Below are positions 9,867-17,151 of a stretch of 24,000 nucleotides of DNA, piece by piece; the stretch's first letter is position 1; each line of letters starts with the position of its first letter. A program made the translations under genes and the position numbers. Source of the stretch: Tractidigestivibacter sp. (GTDB lineage Bacteria > Actinomycetota > Coriobacteriia > Coriobacteriales > Atopobiaceae); contig NZ_JBMNUX010000004.1 in NCBI RefSeq assembly GCF_050946515.1, forward strand, positions 160,105 through 184,104, read 5' to 3'. Below the pieces are notes generated by a model. The model searched no databases, was not told where the DNA came from, and saw nothing but the letters and a program-made list of their open reading frames with translations.

Positions 9867-9942
9867 TGGAGCCAGCAATCAGACTCGAACTGATGACCCC
9901 CGCTTTACGAGAGCGGTGCTCTACCAACTGAGCTATGCTGGC
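9867..9942 (-). tRNA. tRNA-Thr (anticodon CGU), CCA encoded
   Basis: The reverse complement GCCAGCATAGCTCAGTTGGTAGAGCACCGCTCTCGTAAAGCGGGGGTCATCAGTTCGAGTCTGATTGCTGGCTCCA folds by hand into a cloverleaf. It has a 7-bp acceptor stem, GCTC/GAGC D stem, CCGCT/AGCGG anticodon stem, CTCGTAA loop (anticodon CGT) and ATCAG/CTGAT T stem with a TTCGAGT loop. Confidence 0.9.
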
Positions 9943-10032: not shown

Positions 10033-11223
10033 CTACAGAAGGTGGAGCACGCCACGGACAAGGCTCTCGAAATCCGAGCCATGCTTCTTTGCCTCCGCAA
10101 GAACCGTTTCGTGCGTCGTGTCAGCCGCTCCGGCGTCGTTAGCGGCAAGCGTCAGCCCCAGCACGTTCATGCCCAAGGCCCGCGCCATGATGACCTCGTT
10201 GACCGTAGACATGCCCGTGTAGGACACGCCGAGCTTGCCCAGCGCGGCCACCTCGGCAGGGGTCTCAAAGCTGGGTCCAAGGACGCCAGCGAGCACGCCC
10301 TCCTCGACGGCGATGCCCAAATCGTCTGCCACGCCGCGGGCGATGGTGCGCAGGTAGGGAGAATATGCCGTGCTCATGTCCACGAACGGCGTGTCAACGT
10401 CACGGAGCTCGTCCCAGTCGGCCAGCGGGTTTCTCCCCGTCAAATTAATCTGGTCCGTGATGATGCCAAGACCCTTATGGGCATTGCCCGGAACGGCCCC
10501 GGTTGCGCAGGCAAAGATGATGTCGCGGCACCCAAGCCTAAAGGCATGGCGAACGAGCGAGGTCACCTCAGCTGCCGAGTAGCCCTGATACAGGTGGATG
10601 CGCCCCGGATAGACAATAACGGGTACGTCGTCGATGGAGCCGACCGTAGCCTCAAAGCTGTGCCCGGCAATGGGGCGCGCCGACTGCGGAAAGCCCTCGA
10701 TGTCGTGATAGTCAATGCGGCGGACAGGCTTAACAAGCTGCCCCAGATGGCCAAGACCGCTGCCCAGCACGATGGCAACTGGATGCTCGACGGACGGCTT
10801 GCAGGATTCGACGGTCTTCTCGGTAACCACGCAGATTCCCTCCTTCTCAAGGCGACGAGCCAGCACGCCTTCGCCTTTGATCACTCGACCAGTGTATGTC
10901 CCATCGTAGATGAGATGGACTCCGCAAGACGGGCTCTTTGCCTTCAGTACGGCAAGCGGCGCGCCAGACCTTCGGGCCGCTTCAAACGCAATGTCAGCGC
11001 CATGCTCGAACTGCAAGGTCACGTCGGTGCCGTCCTGAAGCCACACGCGCCCGTCCCGTTGCTCGGCAGGAGGCCTGGGAACCGGCAGCCCCGAGGAGCC
11101 TTCCGGGCAGACGCGTATGACCTCGAGCTTGCTTGCAAGCTCTGCCACGGCTGCATTGAGCTTGGAGCCCCCGTCGTAGCGCACAGGCGCACCTAGAAGA
11201 CACGCGCTCACGATTGCACGCAT
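10033..11223 (-). CDS. Fusion protein: N-terminal DUF523 (TudS-like [4Fe-4S] desulfidase domain) + C-terminal trimeric-type purine nucleoside phosphorylase
   Basis: The ORF (TTG at 11241) is trimmed to the ATG at 11223 (MRAIVSACLLG), which has AGAGG upstream. The N-terminal ~145 aa contain SACLLGAPVRYDGG, VCPEGSSGLPVPRPPAE and KAKSPSCGV..IYDG. The C-terminal ~250 aa contain GSGLG, GRIHLYQG, GPSFETPAE and MSTVNE, which are PNP/MTAP family hallmarks. Confidence 0.85.
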   Translation of the reverse strand: MRAIVSACLLGAPVRYDGGSKLNAAVAELASKLEVIRVCPEGSSGLPVPRPPAEQRDGRVWLQDGTDVTLQFEHGADIAFEAARRSGAPLAVLKAKSPSCGVHLIYDGTYTGRVIKGEGVLARRLEKEGICVVTEKTVESCKPSVEHPVAIVLGSGLGHLGQLVKPVRRIDYHDIEGFPQSARPIAGHSFEATVGSIDDVPVIVYPGRIHLYQGYSAAEVTSLVRHAFRLGCRDIIFACATGAVPGNAHKGLGIITDQINLTGRNPLADWDELRDVDTPFVDMSTAYSPYLRTIARGVADDLGIAVEEGVLAGVLGPSFETPAEVAALGKLGVSYTGMSTVNEVIMARALGMNVLGLTLAANDAGAADTTHETVLAEAKKHGSDFESLVRGVLHLL

Positions 11224-11277
11224 GAACGTCACCTCTCTCAAGCAAGGCCTTGCCTCGAGTGCCGTGTCGTCGACCTA

Positions 11278-11315
11278 TGAAAAGCGGGGGACAAGGCAGG
11301 CGCCCCATCCCCCGC
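11278..11315 (-). terminator. Rho-independent terminator after the membrane-protein gene
   Basis: On the minus strand: GCGGGGGA (11315-11308), a 16-nt loop, TCCCCCGC (11291-11284), then TTTTCAT. It begins 21 nt after the stop codon at 11337. Confidence 0.5.
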
Positions 11316-11336: not shown

Positions 11337-12323
11337 CTAGACAGCCAGCGTGTTGATCTGGACGGTGGAGGCGTCCAGAAGCGAGTTAACGTAGGCAGTC
11401 CACTCGGACGAGGCCTCGCTCGAAGCGGTAGAGTAGTCGGAGTAGGCAACGTAGTAGGCCTGCTCGGCTGCAGCATAGGTGGCAGAGTCGTTCGAGATGT
11501 CGTAGGTAGAGAGGGCGGAGTAGTACTCGCCGTCAGTGCGTGCCCACGTGTTGTTCTCGGAATCCCACTCGTCGCCAGCAAGCTCGATGATGTACTGAGC
11601 GTATTCGGAGCTTGCGGTGTCCTCGTTGCCGTCTTCGGGGGTCGAAGGAGCAGAGGGCGCGTCGGGAACCTCGGTGGTGACCACGGTGTCACGAAGCTTC
11701 TTCATGATCGTGGCGTCCTTCAGAAGCGCCTTGGTGGCGTCCTCGCTCAAGCCGTAGTTGGAGCCGATGGTGGCGTAGTCGGAGGTGCCCAGCGTGCTGG
11801 TGGCATACGAGTCGACCTCGTCGTCGGAGGCGTCAATGCCCTGGTCCTCAGCAGCCTGCAGCACGATCTCGTTGCGGATGTAGCTAATGATGGTGTCGGC
11901 GGAAGGCACGGTGTAGGTTCCGTCGTCGTTAGCCTGTTCGGAGACGTCGCCGTTCTGCTCGAGAACCTCGCGAGTAGTAACGGAAGTGGTCTTGCCGTTA
12001 TACGTGTAGGTAGCGATGGAGTCGTCCAGCGCAGACTCCTCGACCGTAGTAGTTCCAACGGAGGTGCTCGAGGAGCCAATCAGGAAGTGACCAATCAGAA
12101 TGCCGCCGACAAGAGCGACCACGCAAATGATGATCCAGACTGCGTTGGACAGGCTCTTACGAGGACCAGCGGACTTCGCAGGCTTCTTCTCGCGAGGCTC
12201 CTTGGCCTTCTTCTCTGGCTTCTTCTCGTCCTTCTTGTCATCCTTTTCGGGCTTCTTGGAGGAATCGTCAGGAGTCTCTATTGACTCATCCTTCTTTTCG
12301 TCCTTCTTTTCGGTGTCAGCCAT
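11337..12323 (-). CDS. Membrane-anchored protein with a Lys/Glu-rich cytoplasmic tail and a SurA-N/PrsA-N-like extracytoplasmic domain (no PPIase domain seen)
   Basis: The ATG at 12323 has AAAGGTGAGG upstream. Residues 1-57 are a K/E/D-rich low-complexity tail, followed by one TM helix (AVWIIICVVALVGGILIGHFLIG). The ectodomain pattern (YTYNGKTTSVTTREVLEQ.., IISYIRNEIVLQAAEDQGIDASDDEVDSY, ALLKDATIMKKLRDTVV) resembles SurA N-terminal chaperone domains. This is a family guess only. Confidence 0.6.
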   Translation of the reverse strand: MADTEKKDEKKDESIETPDDSSKKPEKDDKKDEKKPEKKAKEPREKKPAKSAGPRKSLSNAVWIIICVVALVGGILIGHFLIGSSSTSVGTTTVEESALDDSIATYTYNGKTTSVTTREVLEQNGDVSEQANDDGTYTVPSADTIISYIRNEIVLQAAEDQGIDASDDEVDSYATSTLGTSDYATIGSNYGLSEDATKALLKDATIMKKLRDTVVTTEVPDAPSAPSTPEDGNEDTASSEYAQYIIELAGDEWDSENNTWARTDGEYYSALSTYDISNDSATYAAAEQAYYVAYSDYSTASSEASSEWTAYVNSLLDASTVQINTLAV

Positions 12324-12467
12324 ACCTCACCTTTCGGCCCAGCGCCCTCGGGCGCATGGCAAAACGTACAGAGCATCTGCCATTCTAACGCAGACATGCG
12401 TTCGTCCCCCAAGCGTCATCCAATCAACGCGTGAGAGACGAACGCGAACTACAAAGCTGCAAGTAAC

Positions 12468-13061
12468 CTACTTTGTCTTGGGCTTCGCCGCAGCAACGAT
12501 CTGCTCGGAGTACTCCTTTGTGTATCCGTTGCCATGCTCGGCATCAAACGACATCCTGTCTACCAAGCTCTTGGCAGTCTTCTTGGAGATGGTGCCGTTT
12601 GCAAAGGCGAGAAGCCCTGCCAGCATGTCTCGATACTCGGCGTCTCCGTGATAGCACTGAACGGCCTCGTCCAGAAGCGACCACGCAGCGTCGGAGCGCT
12701 GCTCGGAAGTCGCTCCCACGCGGCACAAGAACAGGAAGGCCGCCAGGCGGACCGTTGCCGAGTCATCGTCAAACAGGGACGCCTCGGCGCCATCGAACGC
12801 CCCGGCAACCTGGTCTGGATACTCGTCTGCCATTTCTGAGAGCGCGTCCAGAACCTCCCAGCGAGTCTGCGCCTCGGGACGGTCGAGCGCGTCAACCAGC
12901 TGGTCCACGTAGTCGCACAGCGCGCTGGGGTTCGCCTTTGCCACGGCTGCAAGCTGGTGGGACATCTCTTGGCGCGTACGCCTGCTCCGCGACGACAGTC
13001 CCTCCACAAGCGCTGCAATGGCCTTTTCGCTCGCAGCGTCGTTCTCGCTTTCGTCTGCCAT
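12468..13061 (-). CDS. HEAT/ARM-like repeat protein (all-alpha, function unknown)
   Basis: ORF 12468..13103 trimmed to the ATG at 13061 (MADESEND), which has AGGGAG 7 nt upstream and lies 16 nt after the NYN gene stop. It has repeated helix-turn-helix units with R/E/D/L periodicity (RTRQEMSHQLAAVA.., EAQTRWEVLDALSEMA.., SATVRLAAFLFLCRVG..), as in HEAT repeats. Confidence 0.65.
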   Translation of the reverse strand: MADESENDAASEKAIAALVEGLSSRSRRTRQEMSHQLAAVAKANPSALCDYVDQLVDALDRPEAQTRWEVLDALSEMADEYPDQVAGAFDGAEASLFDDDSATVRLAAFLFLCRVGATSEQRSDAAWSLLDEAVQCYHGDAEYRDMLAGLLAFANGTISKKTAKSLVDRMSFDAEHGNGYTKEYSEQIVAAAKPKTK

Positions 13062-13077
13062 TTTGCAACTCCCTTTC

Positions 13078-13860
13078 TTACTCGCAGAACCCGTCGACAA
13101 CAACAGTGCCGCTCTTGGGGTCTTGGTGAATGTCGATAAAGCCGAGCTTCGCCGCCTCGCGAATCAGGGCAGTAAAGGAACGATACCCATAAGAAGCCTC
13201 TGAAAACTGCGGGCGCTTGCGACGCATCGTATCTTTCAGACGAGATGCAAGAATAAAGCTGTCGCTCTCGCGCTGCAGGGCATCGATGGTCTCAAAGAGC
13301 AGCTGGTAGCAGTCCTGCTTCTCCTTCGGCACCTTGGTCGAGAAGTCCGGAATCCCCGAGCCGCGCGAGAGGTCCTCATAAAAGATGAACTCGTCGCAGA
13401 CCTCGGCGAGAAGCGTGCTGGTTGAAGCTTTCATGCCTACGCCAATGACGGTCTTGCCGAACTCCTTGAGCTTTGAGACGAGCGGCGAGAAGTCCGAGTC
13501 TCCCGACAGAATGGCAAAGGTGTCGATGTGCTCCTTCGTAAGGCACATCTCTACTGCGTCGACCGCCAGGCGAATGTCGGCGGAGTTTTTGCCAGTATAG
13601 GCACGGTCAGGAATCTCGATGAGCTCGATCCCCAGCTCGTGCAGAGGGGTCACCGCCGTATCAAAGCGTTGCCAATCGCAATATGCGCGCTTGGCCGTGA
13701 TGCGTCCCTTGTCAACCAGCCGCTCGAGGATGAGCTTGACGTCGGGAGCGGGACCGGGCTCTTGGTGGCCGTTCTTCTTGCGCTTGCCGGTTCCAAGCGC
13801 AAGGTTCTCATAGTCGATGAACACCGCAATGGAGCTCTGCGGGGTTTCATTTCCATTCAT
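13078..13860 (-). CDS. NYN (LabA-like PIN-fold RNase) domain protein with a C-terminal OST-HTH/LOTUS domain
   Basis: NYN motifs are present: IAVFIDYENL, GKNSADIRLAVDA and ILSGDSDFSPLVSKLKEFGKTVIGVG. The C-terminal ~75 aa (LASRLKDTMRRKRPQFSEASYGYRSFTALIREAAKLGFIDI) fit OST-HTH/LOTUS. The start is either the ATG at 13860 (AAGGAG 14 nt upstream) or the TTG at 13872 (too close to the SD), so ATG is preferred. Confidence 0.8.
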   Translation of the reverse strand: MNGNETPQSSIAVFIDYENLALGTGKRKKNGHQEPGPAPDVKLILERLVDKGRITAKRAYCDWQRFDTAVTPLHELGIELIEIPDRAYTGKNSADIRLAVDAVEMCLTKEHIDTFAILSGDSDFSPLVSKLKEFGKTVIGVGMKASTSTLLAEVCDEFIFYEDLSRGSGIPDFSTKVPKEKQDCYQLLFETIDALQRESDSFILASRLKDTMRRKRPQFSEASYGYRSFTALIREAAKLGFIDIHQDPKSGTVVVDGFCE

Positions 13861-13895
13861 GCGTGTGTGCAATTCTCCTTTCGGACGAGGCCAAG

Positions 13896-14957
13896 CTAGT
13901 TGTTGCTGGCTACATCGCCCTTGTGGTCATGGTGATGGCAGCACTCGCCATTGCCATGGTCATGGCCGCACTCGCAGCCATCCTTGTGGTTGCTCTTGCC
14001 ATCGTCGTCCTCGTCGCCCTTCACAATGCTCTCGGCATCCAAGAGCGACCAGTCGAGACCGGCTGCGGCGGCAGTTGCCTCCTCCTGATAGAGCAGGGTG
14101 ATTGCCTGCGTTCCCATACGCTTTCCGCCAATCTGGCAGAGCATGTCGTACAGGGTGAACGCCGTCTCGGCGCCTGGAAGCGTAATGCCCCGGTCTTCTG
14201 CCTGAGAAAGCGCAAGGCCGATGTCCTTGCGCAGGTGCTCTGAGAGAAAGCCGGGCTTGTAGTCGCCAGCGACGGACTTCGGGGCCAAGCGCTCGAGCGC
14301 CACCGAGCCGCCCATGCCATGGCTCACCACGTCGAGCATCTGGGAGACATCTACGTCGCTCTGCTCTGCAAGCGCGATGGCATCGGCATAGCCAATCATG
14401 CAAGCGGCAAGCGACACCTGGTTGCAGAGCTTGGTGGTCTGGCCCTTGCCGGCTCCGCCCATGTAGTAGATCTTGCTAGAGAAGGTCTGAAGAATCGGCA
14501 GTACGGGAGCCGCGGTCTTCTCGTCGGTTCCGGCAATCAAGGTAAGCGTTCCGGCAATGGCGCCGTCCTCGCCGCCCGTAACAGGACAGTCAAAGGCGTG
14601 CTTGTCGTCAATCTCCGCAGCTTCGTATATGTCATGGGCAAGCTGCGACGACGAGGTCGTGAGGTCAATCAGGTAGGCACCCTTCTTTGTTGCGCGCAAA
14701 AGCCCGTTGGTCGTGAGGTAGACGTCCTCGACGTCGGAGGGATAGCCGAGCATCGTAAACACGACATCGGCATCCTTGGCGGCATCGGCAGGAGTGTCGG
14801 CCCAATGGGCGCCCTTTGCCACAAGGCCATCGGCCTTTGACTTTGTGCGGTTGTGCACCGTGAGGTCATAGCCGGCGTCCAGAATGTGGCCGGCAATGGG
14901 GGCACCCATGATGCCGGTGCCGATAAAGGCCACCTTGGGCTTTCTAGAAACGCTCAT
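13896..14957 (-). CDS. NAD(P)-dependent beta-hydroxyacid dehydrogenase (3-hydroxyisobutyrate / 2-hydroxy-3-oxopropionate reductase family) with a C-terminal His/Cys/Asp-rich tail
   Basis: ORF trimmed to the ATG at 14957 (MSVSRKPKVAFIGTGIMG), 18 nt after the degV stop. It has the Rossmann motif GTGIMG, FDCPVTGG and GKGQTTKLCNQ, typical of the HIBADH family. The extra ~65 aa end in DEDDDGKSNHKDGCECGHDHGNGECCHHHDHKGD. Confidence 0.85.
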   Translation of the reverse strand: MSVSRKPKVAFIGTGIMGAPIAGHILDAGYDLTVHNRTKSKADGLVAKGAHWADTPADAAKDADVVFTMLGYPSDVEDVYLTTNGLLRATKKGAYLIDLTTSSSQLAHDIYEAAEIDDKHAFDCPVTGGEDGAIAGTLTLIAGTDEKTAAPVLPILQTFSSKIYYMGGAGKGQTTKLCNQVSLAACMIGYADAIALAEQSDVDVSQMLDVVSHGMGGSVALERLAPKSVAGDYKPGFLSEHLRKDIGLALSQAEDRGITLPGAETAFTLYDMLCQIGGKRMGTQAITLLYQEEATAAAAGLDWSLLDAESIVKGDEDDDGKSNHKDGCECGHDHGNGECCHHHDHKGDVASNN

Positions 14958-14975
14958 GCAGTTGATTCCTTTCAA

Positions 14976-16091
14976 TTACTCCTTGTTCGTAGGGGCGCTG
15001 GCGTCAGAGTCCGGATCGTCAGACTTGCCGCGAACGCGCTTGGCGATGCGATCAGCCAGCGAGAGCTTCTCGCGGCGATCTGTGCCCCAAAAGACCATGG
15101 CAACCATGCCAGGTCCAACATGGCTCCCCAGGATGGGAGAGATCGAGGAGCGGATGATGGTGACGTCCTCGCAGCCCTTCTCCTTGCGAATCTCCTTCTC
15201 AAGCCAGTCGGCATCCTTCTCGGCATCGGCGCTCATGATTCCTAGAGGAAGCGATGGGTCATGCGAGTAGTTGTCGCGGAAGTCCTGGATGATGGCGCGA
15301 AGGGCCTTCCTGCGACCGCGGCACATGCCACGCAGCGTGAGGGCGCCCTTGGTGTCATAGGAAAGCTCGGGCTTGATGTCCAGGCGTCCGCCTACGTTTG
15401 CCGCCGCAGGCGGAATGCGGCCGCCCGCCGCCAGCGCGTCAAAGCTCTCCAGCGTGAAGTAGCCGTGGATGAAGTAGCGCGCCTCAGAGGCCCATTCGTA
15501 GAGCTCGCGCGCCGAGAGGCCCTTTGCTGCCTGATTGACAACCTCGATGGCGAGAAGCTCGCCAGCAGCCGAGTCGCAGCAGTTGTCCAGCACGTAGATC
15601 TCGAAGCCAGGATGGTTCTTGCGGACTATCTCGGCCGCCTGGCGCGCATTGTTAATCGAGGACGAAAGACCCTCGGGAAGCCCCATGTAGATGGTGGGCT
15701 TGCCCTCTTGGGCTGCCTTCTCGAAAATCTCAAGGTAGCGCCCCGGCGTTACTGCAGCGGTCGTGTAATGCATGTCGGGATGCTTGCGCATGTTCTCGTA
15801 AAACTCGTGGGGATCCTGGGTCTTCCACATGTCATCCACGTGCTCGCCGTCGGGGCCCACGTACGTAAACGGAATGACCTCGATGCCAAGCTGCTCGGGG
15901 ATGCCCGGCGCGTAGTCGGCCGTCGAGTCGACGATGATCTTTACGTTGCTGGGCTGGTGGTAGGGCTTTGCTACAAACGGCGCCGCGTGCGCGGCGCTGC
16001 TCTTCTCATTGTCTTCCGCCTTGTTGGAAGCGTCAGCGTCTGCCGCGGCGCCGGTATTGTTGGCGTCGATGGGGTCGTTCTCGTTAGCCAT
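14976..16091 (-). CDS. DegV family fatty-acid-binding protein with low-complexity N- and C-terminal extensions
   Basis: The ATG at 16091 has GGGAG 5 nt upstream and lies 20 nt after the hpf stop. The core has VKIIVDSTADY, SSSINNARQAAE and PILGSHVGPGMVAMVF, typical of DegV. A ~48-aa acidic/Ala-rich N-terminal extension and a charged C-terminal tail are additional. Confidence 0.85.
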   Translation of the reverse strand: MANENDPIDANNTGAAADADASNKAEDNEKSSAAHAAPFVAKPYHQPSNVKIIVDSTADYAPGIPEQLGIEVIPFTYVGPDGEHVDDMWKTQDPHEFYENMRKHPDMHYTTAAVTPGRYLEIFEKAAQEGKPTIYMGLPEGLSSSINNARQAAEIVRKNHPGFEIYVLDNCCDSAAGELLAIEVVNQAAKGLSARELYEWASEARYFIHGYFTLESFDALAAGGRIPPAAANVGGRLDIKPELSYDTKGALTLRGMCRGRRKALRAIIQDFRDNYSHDPSLPLGIMSADAEKDADWLEKEIRKEKGCEDVTIIRSSISPILGSHVGPGMVAMVFWGTDRREKLSLADRIAKRVRGKSDDPDSDASAPTNKE

Positions 16092-16111: not shown

Positions 16112-16702
16112 CTATTGCTGCTCTTCAATCTTCGGCTTGATAATGCCGTATCCGCCATTCTTTCTATGGTAGATGACGTTAACGAGCCCAGTTGTGGCAT
16201 TTGTGAACACATAGAAATCATGCCCGAGCAGGTCGGTCTGGACCAGCGCCTCTTCCTCGCTCATTGGCGTGAACTCAACGTACTTCTCGCGCACGAGGCG
16301 ATCGTCCTCGTCCAGCTCTTCTGCGGAGGGCTGAATCAACGACGCGAGCTCGTCGGCGCTCGCAGCGGGCGGGTGCGGAACCTGCGCGCGCTGACGTCGG
16401 TCGATGATGCGGGTCTTGTACTTGCGAAGCTGGCGGGATACCTTGTCGGCGGCCTCGTCGATGGCGGCATACATGTCATCAGAGCTTGCAACAACGCGCA
16501 CGACGTTCTTGCGGACAAATACCGTGACCTCGCAAGCCTTTCTTTCTGGATTAGAGGGGTTCTTGTCAACGCGCAGCACAACGTCGCAGGTCATAGGAGA
16601 AATATCGAAGACCTTGAGGGCGTCGCCAATCTTTTCCTCAACATGCTGGCGGAGAGAGTCAGAAACTGTGACCTTGCGGCCCGAGATCTTGATGTCAACC
16701 AT
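16112..16702 (-). CDS. hpf: Ribosome hibernation-promoting factor, long form (HPF/RaiA/YvyD family)
   Basis: ORF 16112..16957 trimmed to the ATG at 16702 (MVDIKISGRKVTVSDSLRQHVEEKI), which has AAGGAGG 5 nt upstream. It has the N-terminal S30AE fold plus the C-terminal dimerisation domain (FTPMSEEEALVQTDLLGHDFYVFTN..VNVIYHRKNGGYGIIKP). Confidence 0.9.
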   Translation of the reverse strand: MVDIKISGRKVTVSDSLRQHVEEKIGDALKVFDISPMTCDVVLRVDKNPSNPERKACEVTVFVRKNVVRVVASSDDMYAAIDEAADKVSRQLRKYKTRIIDRRQRAQVPHPPAASADELASLIQPSAEELDEDDRLVREKYVEFTPMSEEEALVQTDLLGHDFYVFTNATTGLVNVIYHRKNGGYGIIKPKIEEQQ

Positions 16703-16790: not shown

Positions 16791-16899
16791 GCTGCGGCCG
16801 GCGTTGCGGCAGACGTAGAGATTCCACGGGACGTGCGGAGGCTTGCGCGCGGCTCAGGCACCTTGCGAGAAGAGCTCCGGAAAAGAGCGTCCCACCCAG

Positions 16900-17151
16900 C
16901 TGACCTGGTTTTTGACCCCACACTCGCGCACTGGGGCCTTCGCTTGAGGGGCTGCACGGCCCCGCAACTTGAAACCCTCTCGCCCGCGAGGCCGGATGCC
17001 TCTTTGTTTGTTAGACGGACGGTGCGGCTTACTTCTAGGACGAACCATGATCGCAGGCAGGCGCACCCGCCAGCTTACGTGGATCCCTTTGGCCTCGTCT
17101 GCCATGGACTAGGGCGCGCGTCGCGCCCGCAACCACAGACCTAGGTGGAAC
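16900..17151 (-). ncRNA. Probable raiA-motif ncRNA (boundaries approximate)
   Basis: It lies in the 516-nt ORF-free comFC-hpf spacer, which is the characteristic genomic context of the raiA motif class in Firmicutes and Actinobacteria. It contains dense GC helices (17112-17128; 16948-16963 enclosed by 16923-16928/16985-16990). A perfect TATAAT lies just upstream on the same strand. No covariance-model search was run. Confidence 0.45.

What the first reader, a model, noticed from the sequence alone, without database searches (positions are those of the whole stretch)
12468..13872. Bacterial NYN-LOTUS protein (same NYN + LOTUS domain types as MARF1/limkain-b1) translationally linked to a HEAT-repeat partner
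**Seen in the sequence.**
- One ORF combines a complete NYN/LabA-like PIN-fold nuclease core with a C-terminal OST-HTH/LOTUS domain. The acidic motifs FIDYEN, NSADIRLAVDA and SGDSDF are all intact.
- Sixteen nt after its stop, behind its own AGGGAG SD, starts a 197-aa all-helical HEAT-like protein.

**Established knowledge.**
- NYN domains are RNases.
- LOTUS domains bind RNA or helicases in eukaryotic germline proteins (MARF1, TDRD5/7, Oskar).
- To my knowledge the bacterial NYN-LOTUS proteins have no assigned function.

**Inference.** The 16-nt junction suggests a two-component unit, with a nuclease plus a scaffold or inhibitor. It could be an RNA-turnover, ribosome-quality or defence-like module that has not been described. 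This is the best candidate in the window for an uncharacterised system.
Basis: partly seen in the sequence, partly recalled or inferred. Interest (0 to 1): 0.7.

Follow-up and report, generated by a model that had tools for sequence, protein, structure and literature searches.

The report
Known-type bacterial RNase with lineage-specific neighbour
The gene is a well-conserved member of the already-described bacterial NYN-plus-LOTUS family of predicted RNA-cutting enzymes. The helical-repeat gene behind it is a frequent but dispensable neighbour found only in one order of gut/oral Actinobacteria, not a proven partner.

Summary
**Observation: confirmed.** Window 13078-13860 (-) encodes a 260-aa NYN + LOTUS protein with an intact acidic site. 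Sixteen nt later, 12468-13061 (-) encodes a 197-aa acidic, five-repeat HEAT/ARM-like solenoid.

**Interpretation as a new two-component system: only weakly supported.**
- The NYN+LOTUS architecture was described in 2010 as a probable standalone RNase, and I found no bacterial member whose nuclease function has been studied.
- In 80 NYN-centred loci from many phyla, the HEAT gene occurs only in 10 Coriobacteriales-type loci. In two of these an rRNA methyltransferase (RlmKL) gene lies between the pair.
- In 67 informative HEAT-centred loci, NYN is adjacent in 51 and absent in 16. The 16 fall in at least 4 clades and sit in the same HPF-DegV-dehydrogenase-[NYN]-HEAT block.
- One close NYN orthologue (85% identity) sits elsewhere, with no HEAT gene nearby.
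- The pair shows no specific co-evolution signal, no defence-system match and essentially no matches in viral contigs.

**Best reading.** This is a housekeeping MARF1-like endoribonuclease, the fourth gene of a raiA-RNA/HPF-headed gene string. A lineage-specific accessory solenoid is co-transcribed with it, and a regulatory link between them remains possible (about 25%).

The parts
13078..13860 (-). NYN-LOTUS gene (260 aa from the ATG; stop included). The TTG at 13872 is the first in-frame start but is probably not used.
   Evidence: 100% identical to the 260-aa P0001. Pfam NYN 1.7e-34; OST-HTH 3.8e-5.
13366..13836 (-). NYN (LabA-like, PIN-fold) nuclease domain, residues about 9-165. The acidic site is D16, D95, D121 and D123, plus N19 and D101.
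   Evidence: Pfam. Foldseek matches 2qip and the MARF1 NYN structures 5yaa/6fdl at TMt 0.78-0.81. The profile alignment to human MARF1 places D16, D95 and D121 on the FWDIEN, KNAADD and STD motifs. I infer that these motifs hold active-site Asp358, Asp426 and Asp452 named in PMC6294520. Invariant or near-invariant columns.
13087..13326 (-). C-terminal minimal LOTUS/OST-HTH winged-helix domain, residues about 179-258.
   Evidence: Pfam 23.9 bits vs cut-off 23.8. Profile hit to 2kpm (NE0665) with E 0.019. Foldseek hit to 2kpm with prob 0.97. Model shows helices 179-198, 205-215 and 229-238 plus two strands.
13062..13077 (-). 16-nt spacer with the Shine-Dalgarno-like AGGGAG at 13069-13074.
   Evidence: Read directly from the sequence. 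The spacer is mostly 8-31 nt in relatives.
12468..13061 (-). Gene for a 197-aa acidic (pI 4.5) five-repeat HEAT/ARM-like alpha-solenoid. It belongs to a family seen here only in Coriobacteriales-type loci, with invariant motifs RRxRQ, RPEAQTRWE and QCYHGD.
12398..12445 (-). Strong G+C-rich hairpin about 22 nt after the HEAT stop, with no T-run. It is the probable end of the transcription unit.
   Evidence: MFE -64.9 kcal/mol for the 147-nt spacer, z = -4.2. Relatives carry hairpins here, some followed by T-runs, and a conserved TAGAAT before the next gene.
13896..14975 (-). Upstream gene: 3-hydroxyisobutyrate/6-phosphogluconate dehydrogenase-like protein, 35 nt before the NYN start.
   Evidence: It neighbours NYN in 12 of the 80 NYN-centred loci, more than HEAT does (10).
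14976..16091 (-). DegV-family gene, part of the same co-directional string.
   Evidence: synteny.
16112..16702 (-). Ribosome hibernation promoting factor (HPF/RaiA) gene, the first protein gene of the string.
   Evidence: synteny.
16891..17149 (-). raiA RNA motif (Rfam RF03072) at the head of the string.
   Evidence: 155.4 bits against a gathering score of 101.3, full-length match.

Best explanation
**NYN-LOTUS protein**
- It is an ordinary, strongly conserved member of the bacterial MARF1-like family, also called LK-nuclease/NYN (COG1432) plus OST-HTH.
- Inferred mechanism: the N-terminal PIN-like NYN domain uses its acidic pocket (D16, D95, D121, D123) to hold Mg2+/Mn2+ and cut single-stranded RNA endonucleolytically. 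The C-terminal minimal LOTUS winged helix binds RNA and delivers it to the nuclease.
- It most likely acts alone in housekeeping RNA processing or turnover, possibly ribosome-associated.

**Genomic setting**
- In this Tractidigestivibacter genome it is the fourth gene of a tightly packed string: raiA RNA, HPF, DegV, dehydrogenase, NYN-LOTUS, HEAT, hairpin.

**HEAT-like protein**
- It is an acidic protein-binding solenoid seen here only in Coriobacteriales-type loci.
- It is co-transcribed with the RNase but is not an obligate partner. It may be an accessory factor, but the locus is not a dedicated two-gene system.

**Shown versus inferred**
- Shown here: domains, residues, fold, distribution and synteny.
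- Inferred: RNase activity, RNA binding, co-transcription and physiological role.
For: **Family membership**
- Pfam and structure support the family assignment.
- The acidic site is invariant across phyla.
- The family is large: 8448 representative clusters at E <= 0.001.
- It is spread over Actinomycetota, Planctomycetota, Acidobacteriota, Poribacteria, Methylomirabilota, Thermodesulfobacteriota and others.
- No neighbour is shared across phyla, as stated in 2010 (PMC2848206).

**Housekeeping character**
- NYN is the slowest-evolving gene of the block. Mean pairwise distance is 0.21, against 0.31 (dehydrogenase), 0.41 (HEAT) and 0.49 (SurA_N-like).
- Its neighbours are housekeeping genes.
- There are essentially no matches in 2.9 million viral contigs.
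- PADLOC gives only a partial domain-level NYN match.

**HEAT is not obligate**
- It is absent from 70 of 80 NYN-centred loci.
- No HEAT fusion occurs in 150 representatives.
- 16 of 67 informative HEAT-centred loci lack NYN. They show no tblastn remnant, fall in at least 4 clades and keep all HEAT motifs.
- Independent gene calls confirm a NYN-less locus over +/-10 kb (L161).
- An 85%-identical NYN in Coriobacteriales bacterium OH1046 lies between a lectin gene and a class A PBP, with no HEAT gene nearby.
- The partial mirror-tree correlation for NYN-HEAT is 0.18, against 0.54 for HEAT and the SurA_N-like protein.

**Literature for the mechanism**
- The MARF1 NYN domain is a Mn2+/Mg2+-stimulated endoribonuclease (PMC6294520).
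- The LOTUS domain of bacterial TP0894 binds G-quadruplex RNA (PMC7498356).
- Synechocystis Slr1870 (NYN + OST-HTH) co-purifies with Rbp3 and ribosomes (PMC12232666).
Against: - NYN and HEAT are adjacent in 51 of 67 informative HEAT-centred loci, and in all 8 close NYN-centred genome loci, mostly with 8-31 nt spacers.
- The adjacency survives where the downstream neighbour differs (L007, L114, L133, L166).
- In two deeper-branching lineages the two genes stay in one string, separated only by an RlmKL gene.
- That persistence is more than random neighbours usually show.
- I could not establish whether organisms with NYN-less loci carry NYN elsewhere in the genome.
- No enzymatic data exist for any bacterial member.
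Confidence: 0.6

Rival explanations
1. **Functional pair within Coriobacteriales.** The acidic HEAT/ARM solenoid binds the NYN-LOTUS RNase as an inhibitor, adaptor or localisation factor. The two genes act as one unit even though other bacteria use the RNase alone.
For: - The genes are adjacent in 51 of 67 and 8 of 8 loci, with short spacers.
- Adjacency is kept when the downstream flank changes.
- Both are the last genes before a hairpin.
- HEAT is acidic (pI 4.5), while the NYN domain of this clade carries a basic surface loop, GKRKKNGHQEPGP.
- The closest folds are armadillo proteins designed to bind Lys/Arg-rich peptides.
Against: - HEAT persists with all its motifs in 16 of 67 loci without NYN, in at least 4 clades.
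- A close NYN orthologue is found away from any HEAT gene.
- There is no fusion anywhere.
- The partial co-evolution signal is weak, 0.18.
- The basic loop also occurs in HEAT-less relatives L011-L020.
- The upstream dehydrogenase gene is an equally persistent neighbour of NYN.
Confidence: 0.25
2. **HEAT works with its downstream neighbour.** The HEAT protein partners the SurA_N-like membrane protein with a Lys/Glu-rich cytoplasmic tail (or, in basal lineages, the isocitrate dehydrogenase locus). Its position next to NYN is incidental.
For: - HEAT is followed by the SurA_N-like gene in 60 of 71 informative loci.
- In some NYN-less lineages the two genes overlap or abut, with spacers of -4 to +2 nt.
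- These two show the highest mirror-tree correlation (0.94; partial 0.54).
Against: - In the window and most relatives, a hairpin and a conserved TAGAAT box separate HEAT from the SurA_N-like gene by about 120-140 nt. This suggests separate transcription units.
- Basal lineages have isocitrate dehydrogenase there instead.
- The correlation may simply reflect that both proteins evolve fast.
Confidence: 0.08
3. **Toxin-antitoxin or anti-phage defence module.** The NYN RNase is the toxin or effector and HEAT is the immunity or sensor protein.
For: - NYN/PIN nucleases occur in some defence systems.
- PADLOC's NYN model gives a partial hit (31 bits, E 3.9e-8).
Against: - The HEAT protein has no PADLOC match better than E 0.008.
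- The context is conserved housekeeping synteny, with no mobile-element genes.
- NYN is the most conserved gene of the block rather than a fast-evolving one.
- Each gene occurs without the other.
- Matches in viral contigs are essentially absent.
Confidence: 0.03

Closest known systems
Bacterial LK-nuclease (DUF88/NYN, COG1432) + OST-HTH proteins ('MARF1-like'): Anantharaman, Zhang & Aravind 2010; group NYN.COG1432 of Matelska et al. 2017
   Same: - Same two-domain architecture, in the same order, with the same conserved motifs.
- Predicted standalone RNA-degrading enzyme.
- No gene neighbourhood conserved across phyla.
   Different: - No difference in kind.
- This member is a minimal 260-aa version. 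It lacks the long low-complexity basic C-terminal tail seen in 73 of 107 full-core representatives.
- In its lineage it is usually followed by a HEAT-like gene.
Animal MARF1 / limkain b1 (NYN + RRM + multiple LOTUS domains)
   Same: - NYN fold (TMt about 0.8 to 5yaa/6fdl).
- Three of the four active-site aspartates align (with residues from PMC6294520).
- A minimal-type LOTUS domain is present.
   Different: - About 20% sequence identity.
- There is one LOTUS domain rather than eight, and no RRMs.
- The position equivalent to Asp427 is Ile. The bacterial family has its own invariant or near-invariant D123 and D101.
- There is no decapping-complex context.
VPA0982 (PDB 2qip), NE0665 LOTUS (PDB 2kpm), T. 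pallidum TP0894, Synechocystis Slr1870
   Same: - 2qip is the best sequence and structure match for the NYN domain.
- 2kpm matches the LOTUS domain.
- TP0894 and Slr1870 share the two-domain architecture, according to the literature.
   Different: - 2qip and 2kpm are single-domain structures with no known function.
- G-quadruplex binding was shown for the TP0894 LOTUS domain but not for NE0665.
- The Slr1870 evidence is a co-immunoprecipitation only.
B. subtilis Rae1/YacP (NYN-fold, ribosome-dependent endoribonuclease)
   Same: It is a bacterial NYN-fold endoribonuclease tied to the ribosome. This is a functional analogy from my own knowledge; PMC6294520 cites it as a structural relative of the MARF1 NYN domain.
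   Different: It belongs to a different NYN subfamily (YacP-like) and has no LOTUS domain. It was not compared here.
HEAT/armadillo alpha-solenoids (Pfam HEAT_2, HEAT_EZ; designed armadillo repeat proteins)
   Same: - Five helix-pair repeats.
- Foldseek TMq about 0.75.
   Different: - It scores below Pfam thresholds.
- It has family-specific invariant polar motifs (RRxRQ, RPEAQTRWE, QCYHGD) that the generic repeat families do not share.
- It scores far below the cut-off of the NCBIfam DVU0298 family (23.4 vs 75).

Membership tests
Bacterial NYN (PF01936/COG1432) + OST-HTH 'MARF1-like' RNases | NYN/LabA-like PIN-fold domain scoring above the curated threshold | tested here: met
   119.9 bits against a cut-off of 24.2. 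Foldseek matches 2qip and the MARF1 NYN domain at TMt 0.78-0.81.
Bacterial NYN (PF01936/COG1432) + OST-HTH 'MARF1-like' RNases | Conserved acidic metal-binding site | tested here: met
   - D16, D95 and D121 align to the MARF1 motifs that hold Asp358, Asp426 and Asp452.
- D16, N19, D95, D121 and D123 are invariant across phyla.
- The position equivalent to Asp427 is Ile.
Bacterial NYN (PF01936/COG1432) + OST-HTH 'MARF1-like' RNases | C-terminal OST-HTH/LOTUS winged helix | tested here: met
   - The Pfam pass is marginal (23.9 vs 23.8).
- Supported by the 2kpm profile hit (E 0.019) and the Foldseek hit to 2kpm (prob 0.97).
- Supported by the model topology and by PF12872 on most orthologues.
Bacterial NYN (PF01936/COG1432) + OST-HTH 'MARF1-like' RNases | Endoribonuclease activity and RNA binding by the LOTUS domain | not testable with these tools
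   Activity is shown only for MARF1 (PMC6294520). RNA binding is shown only for the TP0894 LOTUS domain (PMC7498356).
TIGR00288 family NYN protein (NCBIfam) | Whole-protein score above the curated cut-off | tested here: not met
   39.9 bits against a cut-off of 178.45, and the match is partial. The JGI label 'TIGR00288 family' on database hits is loose.
HEAT repeat proteins (Pfam HEAT_2 / HEAT_EZ) | Repeat-model score above the gathering threshold | tested here: not met
   26.5 vs 27 and 23.3 vs 27.7, so just below threshold.
HEAT repeat proteins (Pfam HEAT_2 / HEAT_EZ) | Alpha-solenoid built of stacked helix pairs | tested here: met
   AlphaFold2 pLDDT 95.4 with 10 helices. Foldseek TMq about 0.75 to armadillo-repeat proteins.
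Two-gene toxin-antitoxin / anti-phage defence system | Strict co-occurrence and adjacency of the two genes | tested here: not met
   - 70 of 80 NYN-centred loci lack HEAT.
- 16 of 67 informative HEAT-centred loci lack NYN.
- NYN is relocated in OH1046.
Two-gene toxin-antitoxin / anti-phage defence system | Match to known defence-protein models, and a defence-island or mobile context | tested here: not met
   - PADLOC gives only a partial NYN-domain hit and nothing credible for HEAT.
- The flanking genes are housekeeping.
- Viral contigs hold essentially no matches.
Conserved operonic protein pair (functional partners) | Neighbourhood conserved beyond the range of general synteny, a fusion in some lineage, or a specific co-evolution signal | tested here: inconclusive
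   - Adjacency holds within one order only, inside a block of 6-7 syntenic genes.
- No fusion was found.
- The partial mirror-tree correlation is 0.18.
- However, adjacency survives some flank changes.

The most novel reading that the evidence does not exclude
In Atopobiaceae and their relatives, the acidic ARM/HEAT-like protein would be a dedicated regulator or adaptor of the MARF1-like RNase. It might dock on the clade-specific basic loop of the NYN domain. Both would be co-expressed with the ribosome hibernation factor HPF behind the raiA RNA, forming a stationary-phase module for ribosome or RNA turnover.
Probability: 0.15. Interest if true: 0.55.

Novelty: new member of a known kind. Interest (0 to 1): 0.3.

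Why it matters
Bacterial NYN-LOTUS proteins are widespread and very strongly conserved: about 50% identity between phyla, with an invariant active site. Yet I found no bacterial member whose nuclease function has been studied. A first handle on their substrate would therefore matter for bacterial RNA biology, and for understanding the origin of animal MARF1.

What the window does offer:
- a clean minimal member of the family;
- a consistent genomic association with the ribosome hibernation factor HPF, and with the rRNA methyltransferase RlmKL in deeper relatives;
- an uncharacterised solenoid family, seen here only in Coriobacteriales-type loci, that could be tested as an accessory factor.

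Tried and rejected
- **Complex prediction.** I built a paired NYN-linker-HEAT alignment (A3) as a substitute for AlphaFold-Multimer. 
- **Fusion ('Rosetta stone') search.** HEAT matched none of 150 NYN-LOTUS representatives. Their extensions are low-complexity basic tails.
- **Cross-phylum neighbour clustering** of the 80 NYN-centred loci. No shared partner emerged. Only the lineage-restricted dehydrogenase (12 loci), HEAT (10) and RlmKL (7) recurred. The gene between NYN and RlmKL in L011-L015 is a cell-wall-binding CWB2/NlpC-P60 protein, unrelated to RNA.
- **Defence reading.** PADLOC and the viral-contig scans were negative.
- **Basic loop as a HEAT docking site.** The basic loop at NYN residues 23-42 also occurs in HEAT-less relatives, so it does not discriminate.
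- **Mirror-tree co-evolution.** No NYN-HEAT signal appeared beyond shared phylogeny. This is a weak test, because NYN varies little.
- **Rfam scan of the locus at relaxed threshold.** It returned only chance-level hits.
- **Literature.** I found no functional study of the nuclease of a bacterial NYN-LOTUS protein.
Full report
**1. What is there**

The window comes from a Tractidigestivibacter-like member of the Atopobiaceae (Coriobacteriia). Both proteins have 100%-identical database entries from that genus (P0001 and P0121).

On the minus strand lies a tightly packed, co-directional string:
- raiA RNA motif, 16891-17149 (Rfam, 155 bits)
- HPF, 16112-16702
- DegV, 14976-16091
- a 3-hydroxyisobutyrate-dehydrogenase-like gene, 13896-14975
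- the NYN-LOTUS gene, 13078-13860
- the HEAT-like gene, 12468-13061
- a strong hairpin, 12398-12445 (z = -4.2)

After a 144-nt gap come a SurA_N-like membrane-protein gene (11337-12323) and a canonical terminator (11284-11315). Spacers within the string are 20, 0, 35 and 16 nt, measured between ORF-list starts except for the ATG taken as the NYN start. The 16-nt NYN/HEAT junction is therefore not special within the string.

**2. Check of the observation**

NYN-LOTUS protein:
- Pfam NYN scores 119.9 bits (cut-off 24.2), and OST-HTH/LOTUS 23.9 bits (cut-off 23.8).
- The marginal LOTUS call has three lines of support. PF12872 is precomputed on most orthologues. A family-profile hit reaches the NE0665 LOTUS structure 2kpm (E 0.019). 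The AlphaFold2 model (pLDDT 89, pTM 0.79) has a C-terminal domain of helices plus a two-strand wing.
- Foldseek places the N-terminal domain on VPA0982 (2qip) and on mouse and human MARF1 NYN domains, with TMt 0.78-0.81.
- In the profile alignment to human MARF1, D16, D95 and D121 fall on its FWDIEN, KNAADD and STD motifs. I infer that these hold active-site Asp358, Asp426 and Asp452 named in PMC6294520. The position equivalent to Asp427 is Ile.
- D16, N19, D95, D121 and D123 are invariant in cross-phylum alignments.

HEAT-like protein:
- It is modelled with pLDDT 95.4 and pTM 0.90 as ten helices, that is, five helix pairs.
- It matches designed armadillo-repeat proteins at TMq about 0.75.
- It scores just under the Pfam HEAT thresholds and is acidic (pI 4.5; family median 4.6).

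'Translational linkage' should be read as probable co-transcription.

**3. How far the NYN-LOTUS family reaches, and what accompanies it**

- An exhaustive search found 8448 representative clusters at E <= 0.001, of which 547 are at <= 1e-30.
- Of 107 representatives with a full core, 73 carry C-terminal extensions of more than 50 aa. Those I read are low-complexity basic tails, some with RGRP (AT-hook-like) repeats. None matches HEAT.
- A genome scan with a diverse alignment returned 80 loci. They come from Actinomycetota, Planctomycetota, Acidobacteriota, Poribacteria, Methylomirabilota, Thermodesulfobacteriota, Myxococcota and others.
- A HEAT-family HMM finds the gene directly downstream in L001-L008, which are Atopobiaceae-type loci.
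- It finds the gene 2.3 kb downstream in L009 and L010, and nowhere in L011-L080.
- In L009 and L010 the intervening gene is a full RlmKL, a 23S rRNA methyltransferase with THUMP and two methyltransferase domains. RlmKL also lies near NYN in L011-L015.
- All-against-all clustering of neighbouring ORFs found no partner shared across phyla.

This agrees with Anantharaman, Zhang and Aravind (2010). They described this architecture, noted the absence of conserved neighbourhoods and proposed a standalone RNA-degrading enzyme (PMC2848206).

**4. The HEAT gene seen from its own side**

A metagenome scan with the HEAT alignment gave 80 loci.
- Of 67 loci with enough upstream sequence, 51 have NYN directly upstream. 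Four of these were first mis-sorted because the HEAT ORF had been over-extended.
- The other 16 have no NYN anywhere in the locus, and tblastn finds no remnant even at E <= 10.
- In twelve of the 16, the dehydrogenase gene lies upstream of HEAT. The gap is 6-61 nt in six, about 500-570 nt in five, where a gene for a roughly 144-aa protein with no Pfam match sits in the NYN slot, and undefined in L110 because of ORF over-extension.
- The other four follow rplK-rplA or unrelated genes and precede isocitrate dehydrogenase and aconitase genes.
- On a HEAT neighbour-joining tree the NYN-less loci form at least four to five separate groups. All keep the RRxRQ, EAQTRWE and QC[YF]HG[DN] motifs.
- Independent database gene calls confirm one such locus over +/-10 kb (L161).
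- Conversely, an NYN-LOTUS gene 85% identical to the window's sits between a ricin-lectin gene and a class A penicillin-binding protein in Coriobacteriales bacterium OH1046. No HEAT gene lies within 4 kb.
- Two other close orthologues keep the usual block.
- HEAT is followed by the SurA_N-like gene in 60 of 71 informative loci and by isocitrate dehydrogenase in 9. That neighbour is at least as constant as NYN.

**5. Co-evolution and selection**

I compared pairwise distances in 42 loci that carry all four genes.
- NYN is the most conserved, with a mean distance of 0.21. The others are 0.31 (dehydrogenase), 0.41 (HEAT) and 0.49 (SurA_N-like).
- The NYN-HEAT distance correlation is 0.68. It falls to 0.18 after controlling for the other two genes.
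- The HEAT/SurA_N-like correlation is 0.94, with a partial value of 0.54.
- The test is weak because NYN varies little. Even so, it gives no sign of a specific NYN-HEAT relationship.

**6. Defence or toxin reading**

- PADLOC returns only a partial NYN-domain match and nothing credible for HEAT.
- The flanking genes are housekeeping: an ABC amino-acid transporter, YaaA, RpiR, a mannose-type PTS, BtpA, ComF, and in relatives KsgA, TatD and MetRS.
- Neither family is found in 2.9 million viral contigs, beyond one truncated and one 26%-identity match.
- The strong conservation of the NYN protein is the opposite of what conflict systems show.

**7. Most likely mechanism**

- By homology with MARF1, the NYN pocket binds Mg2+/Mn2+ and cleaves single-stranded RNA endonucleolytically (PMC6294520).
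- The minimal LOTUS domain binds RNA. G-rich/G-quadruplex binding was shown for the bacterial TP0894 LOTUS domain but not for NE0665 (PMC7498356).
- Three contextual hints point to ribosome or rRNA/tRNA-related substrates. The position behind raiA RNA and HPF is conserved across the family. RlmKL is linked in deeper relatives. Synechocystis Slr1870 co-purifies with Rbp3 and ribosomes (PMC12232666).
- Earlier notes that some NYN genes sit with tRNA/rRNA maturation genes agree with this (PMC5499597).
- All of this is inference; no activity was tested.
- The HEAT protein is most simply a protein-binding solenoid expressed from the same transcript. A regulatory contact with the RNase is possible, and I put it at about 25%. 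The distribution data show that it is not required by either gene.

**8. Verdict**

- The NYN-LOTUS gene is a new member of a known, though experimentally neglected, kind.
- The HEAT family is an unnamed family seen here only in Coriobacteriales-type loci.
The pair is not conserved as neighbours outside one order, and not always within it.
- Interest is modest, at 0.3. The useful residue is a testable accessory-factor hypothesis and the HPF/RlmKL context.

Noticed in passing
window 16891-17149 (-): A full-length raiA RNA motif (Rfam RF03072; 155.4 bits against a gathering score of 101.3) lies directly upstream of the HPF/RaiA gene. It heads the gene string that contains the finding.
   Followed up: partly
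window 12398-12445 (-), and the HEAT-to-next-gene spacers of L001-L140: A roughly 19-bp G+C-rich hairpin without a T-run follows the HEAT stop (z = -4.2). Relatives have hairpins at the same place, some with T-runs, followed by a conserved TAGAAT box before the SurA_N-like gene. This looks like a terminator plus the promoter of the next unit.
   Followed up: partly
window 13896-14035 (-): The dehydrogenase-like protein ends in an unusual Cys/His/Asp-rich tail (...NHKDGCECGHDHGNGECCHHHDHKGD...), which suggests a metal-binding appendage.
   Followed up: no
window 10033-11241 (-): A single ORF fuses a 2-thiouracil desulfurase (DUF523, PF04463) domain to a purine/uridine nucleoside phosphorylase domain. 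The fusion is conserved at the end of the syntenic block in relatives.
   Followed up: no
window 11337-12323 (-): This membrane protein has a long Lys/Glu/Pro-rich N-terminal tail, one transmembrane helix and a weak SurA_N-like domain. It is the most constant downstream neighbour of the HEAT gene (60 of 71 loci). Its gene overlaps or abuts the HEAT stop in some NYN-less lineages.
   Followed up: partly
L009:972-3221, L010:4777-7002, and L011-L015: In deeper-branching Actinomycetota MAGs, the NYN-LOTUS gene is followed by a full-length RlmKL (23S rRNA methyltransferase with THUMP and two methyltransferase domains). RlmKL follows directly, overlapping the NYN stop, in L009 and L010, or after one cell-wall-binding protein gene.
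   Followed up: partly
P0241, P0242 and 73 of 107 full-core representatives: Many NYN-LOTUS homologues carry 100-400-aa low-complexity, highly charged C-terminal tails. P0241 and P0242, the closest long relatives at 65-66% identity, have repeated K/R-RGRP-RK (AT-hook-like) motifs. The window protein lacks any tail.
   Followed up: partly
L161:9459-9893, L166:3564-3995, L007:3540-3971, L010:3648-3980: A small protein of about 110-144 aa with no Pfam match is encoded between the dehydrogenase gene and NYN in some lineages. The L007, L010 and L113 copies are hydrophobic. In NYN-less loci such as L161 it occupies the NYN slot.
   Followed up: no
L168:4001-4777 (GCA_004010535.1, Coriobacteriales bacterium OH1046): An NYN-LOTUS gene 85% identical to the window's has moved out of the HPF block. 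It lies between a 1299-aa ricin-B-lectin protein gene and a class A penicillin-binding protein gene.
   Followed up: partly
window 9867-9942 (-): A tRNA-Thr(CGT) gene lies between the BtpA-family gene and the nucleoside-phosphorylase fusion gene.
   Followed up: no
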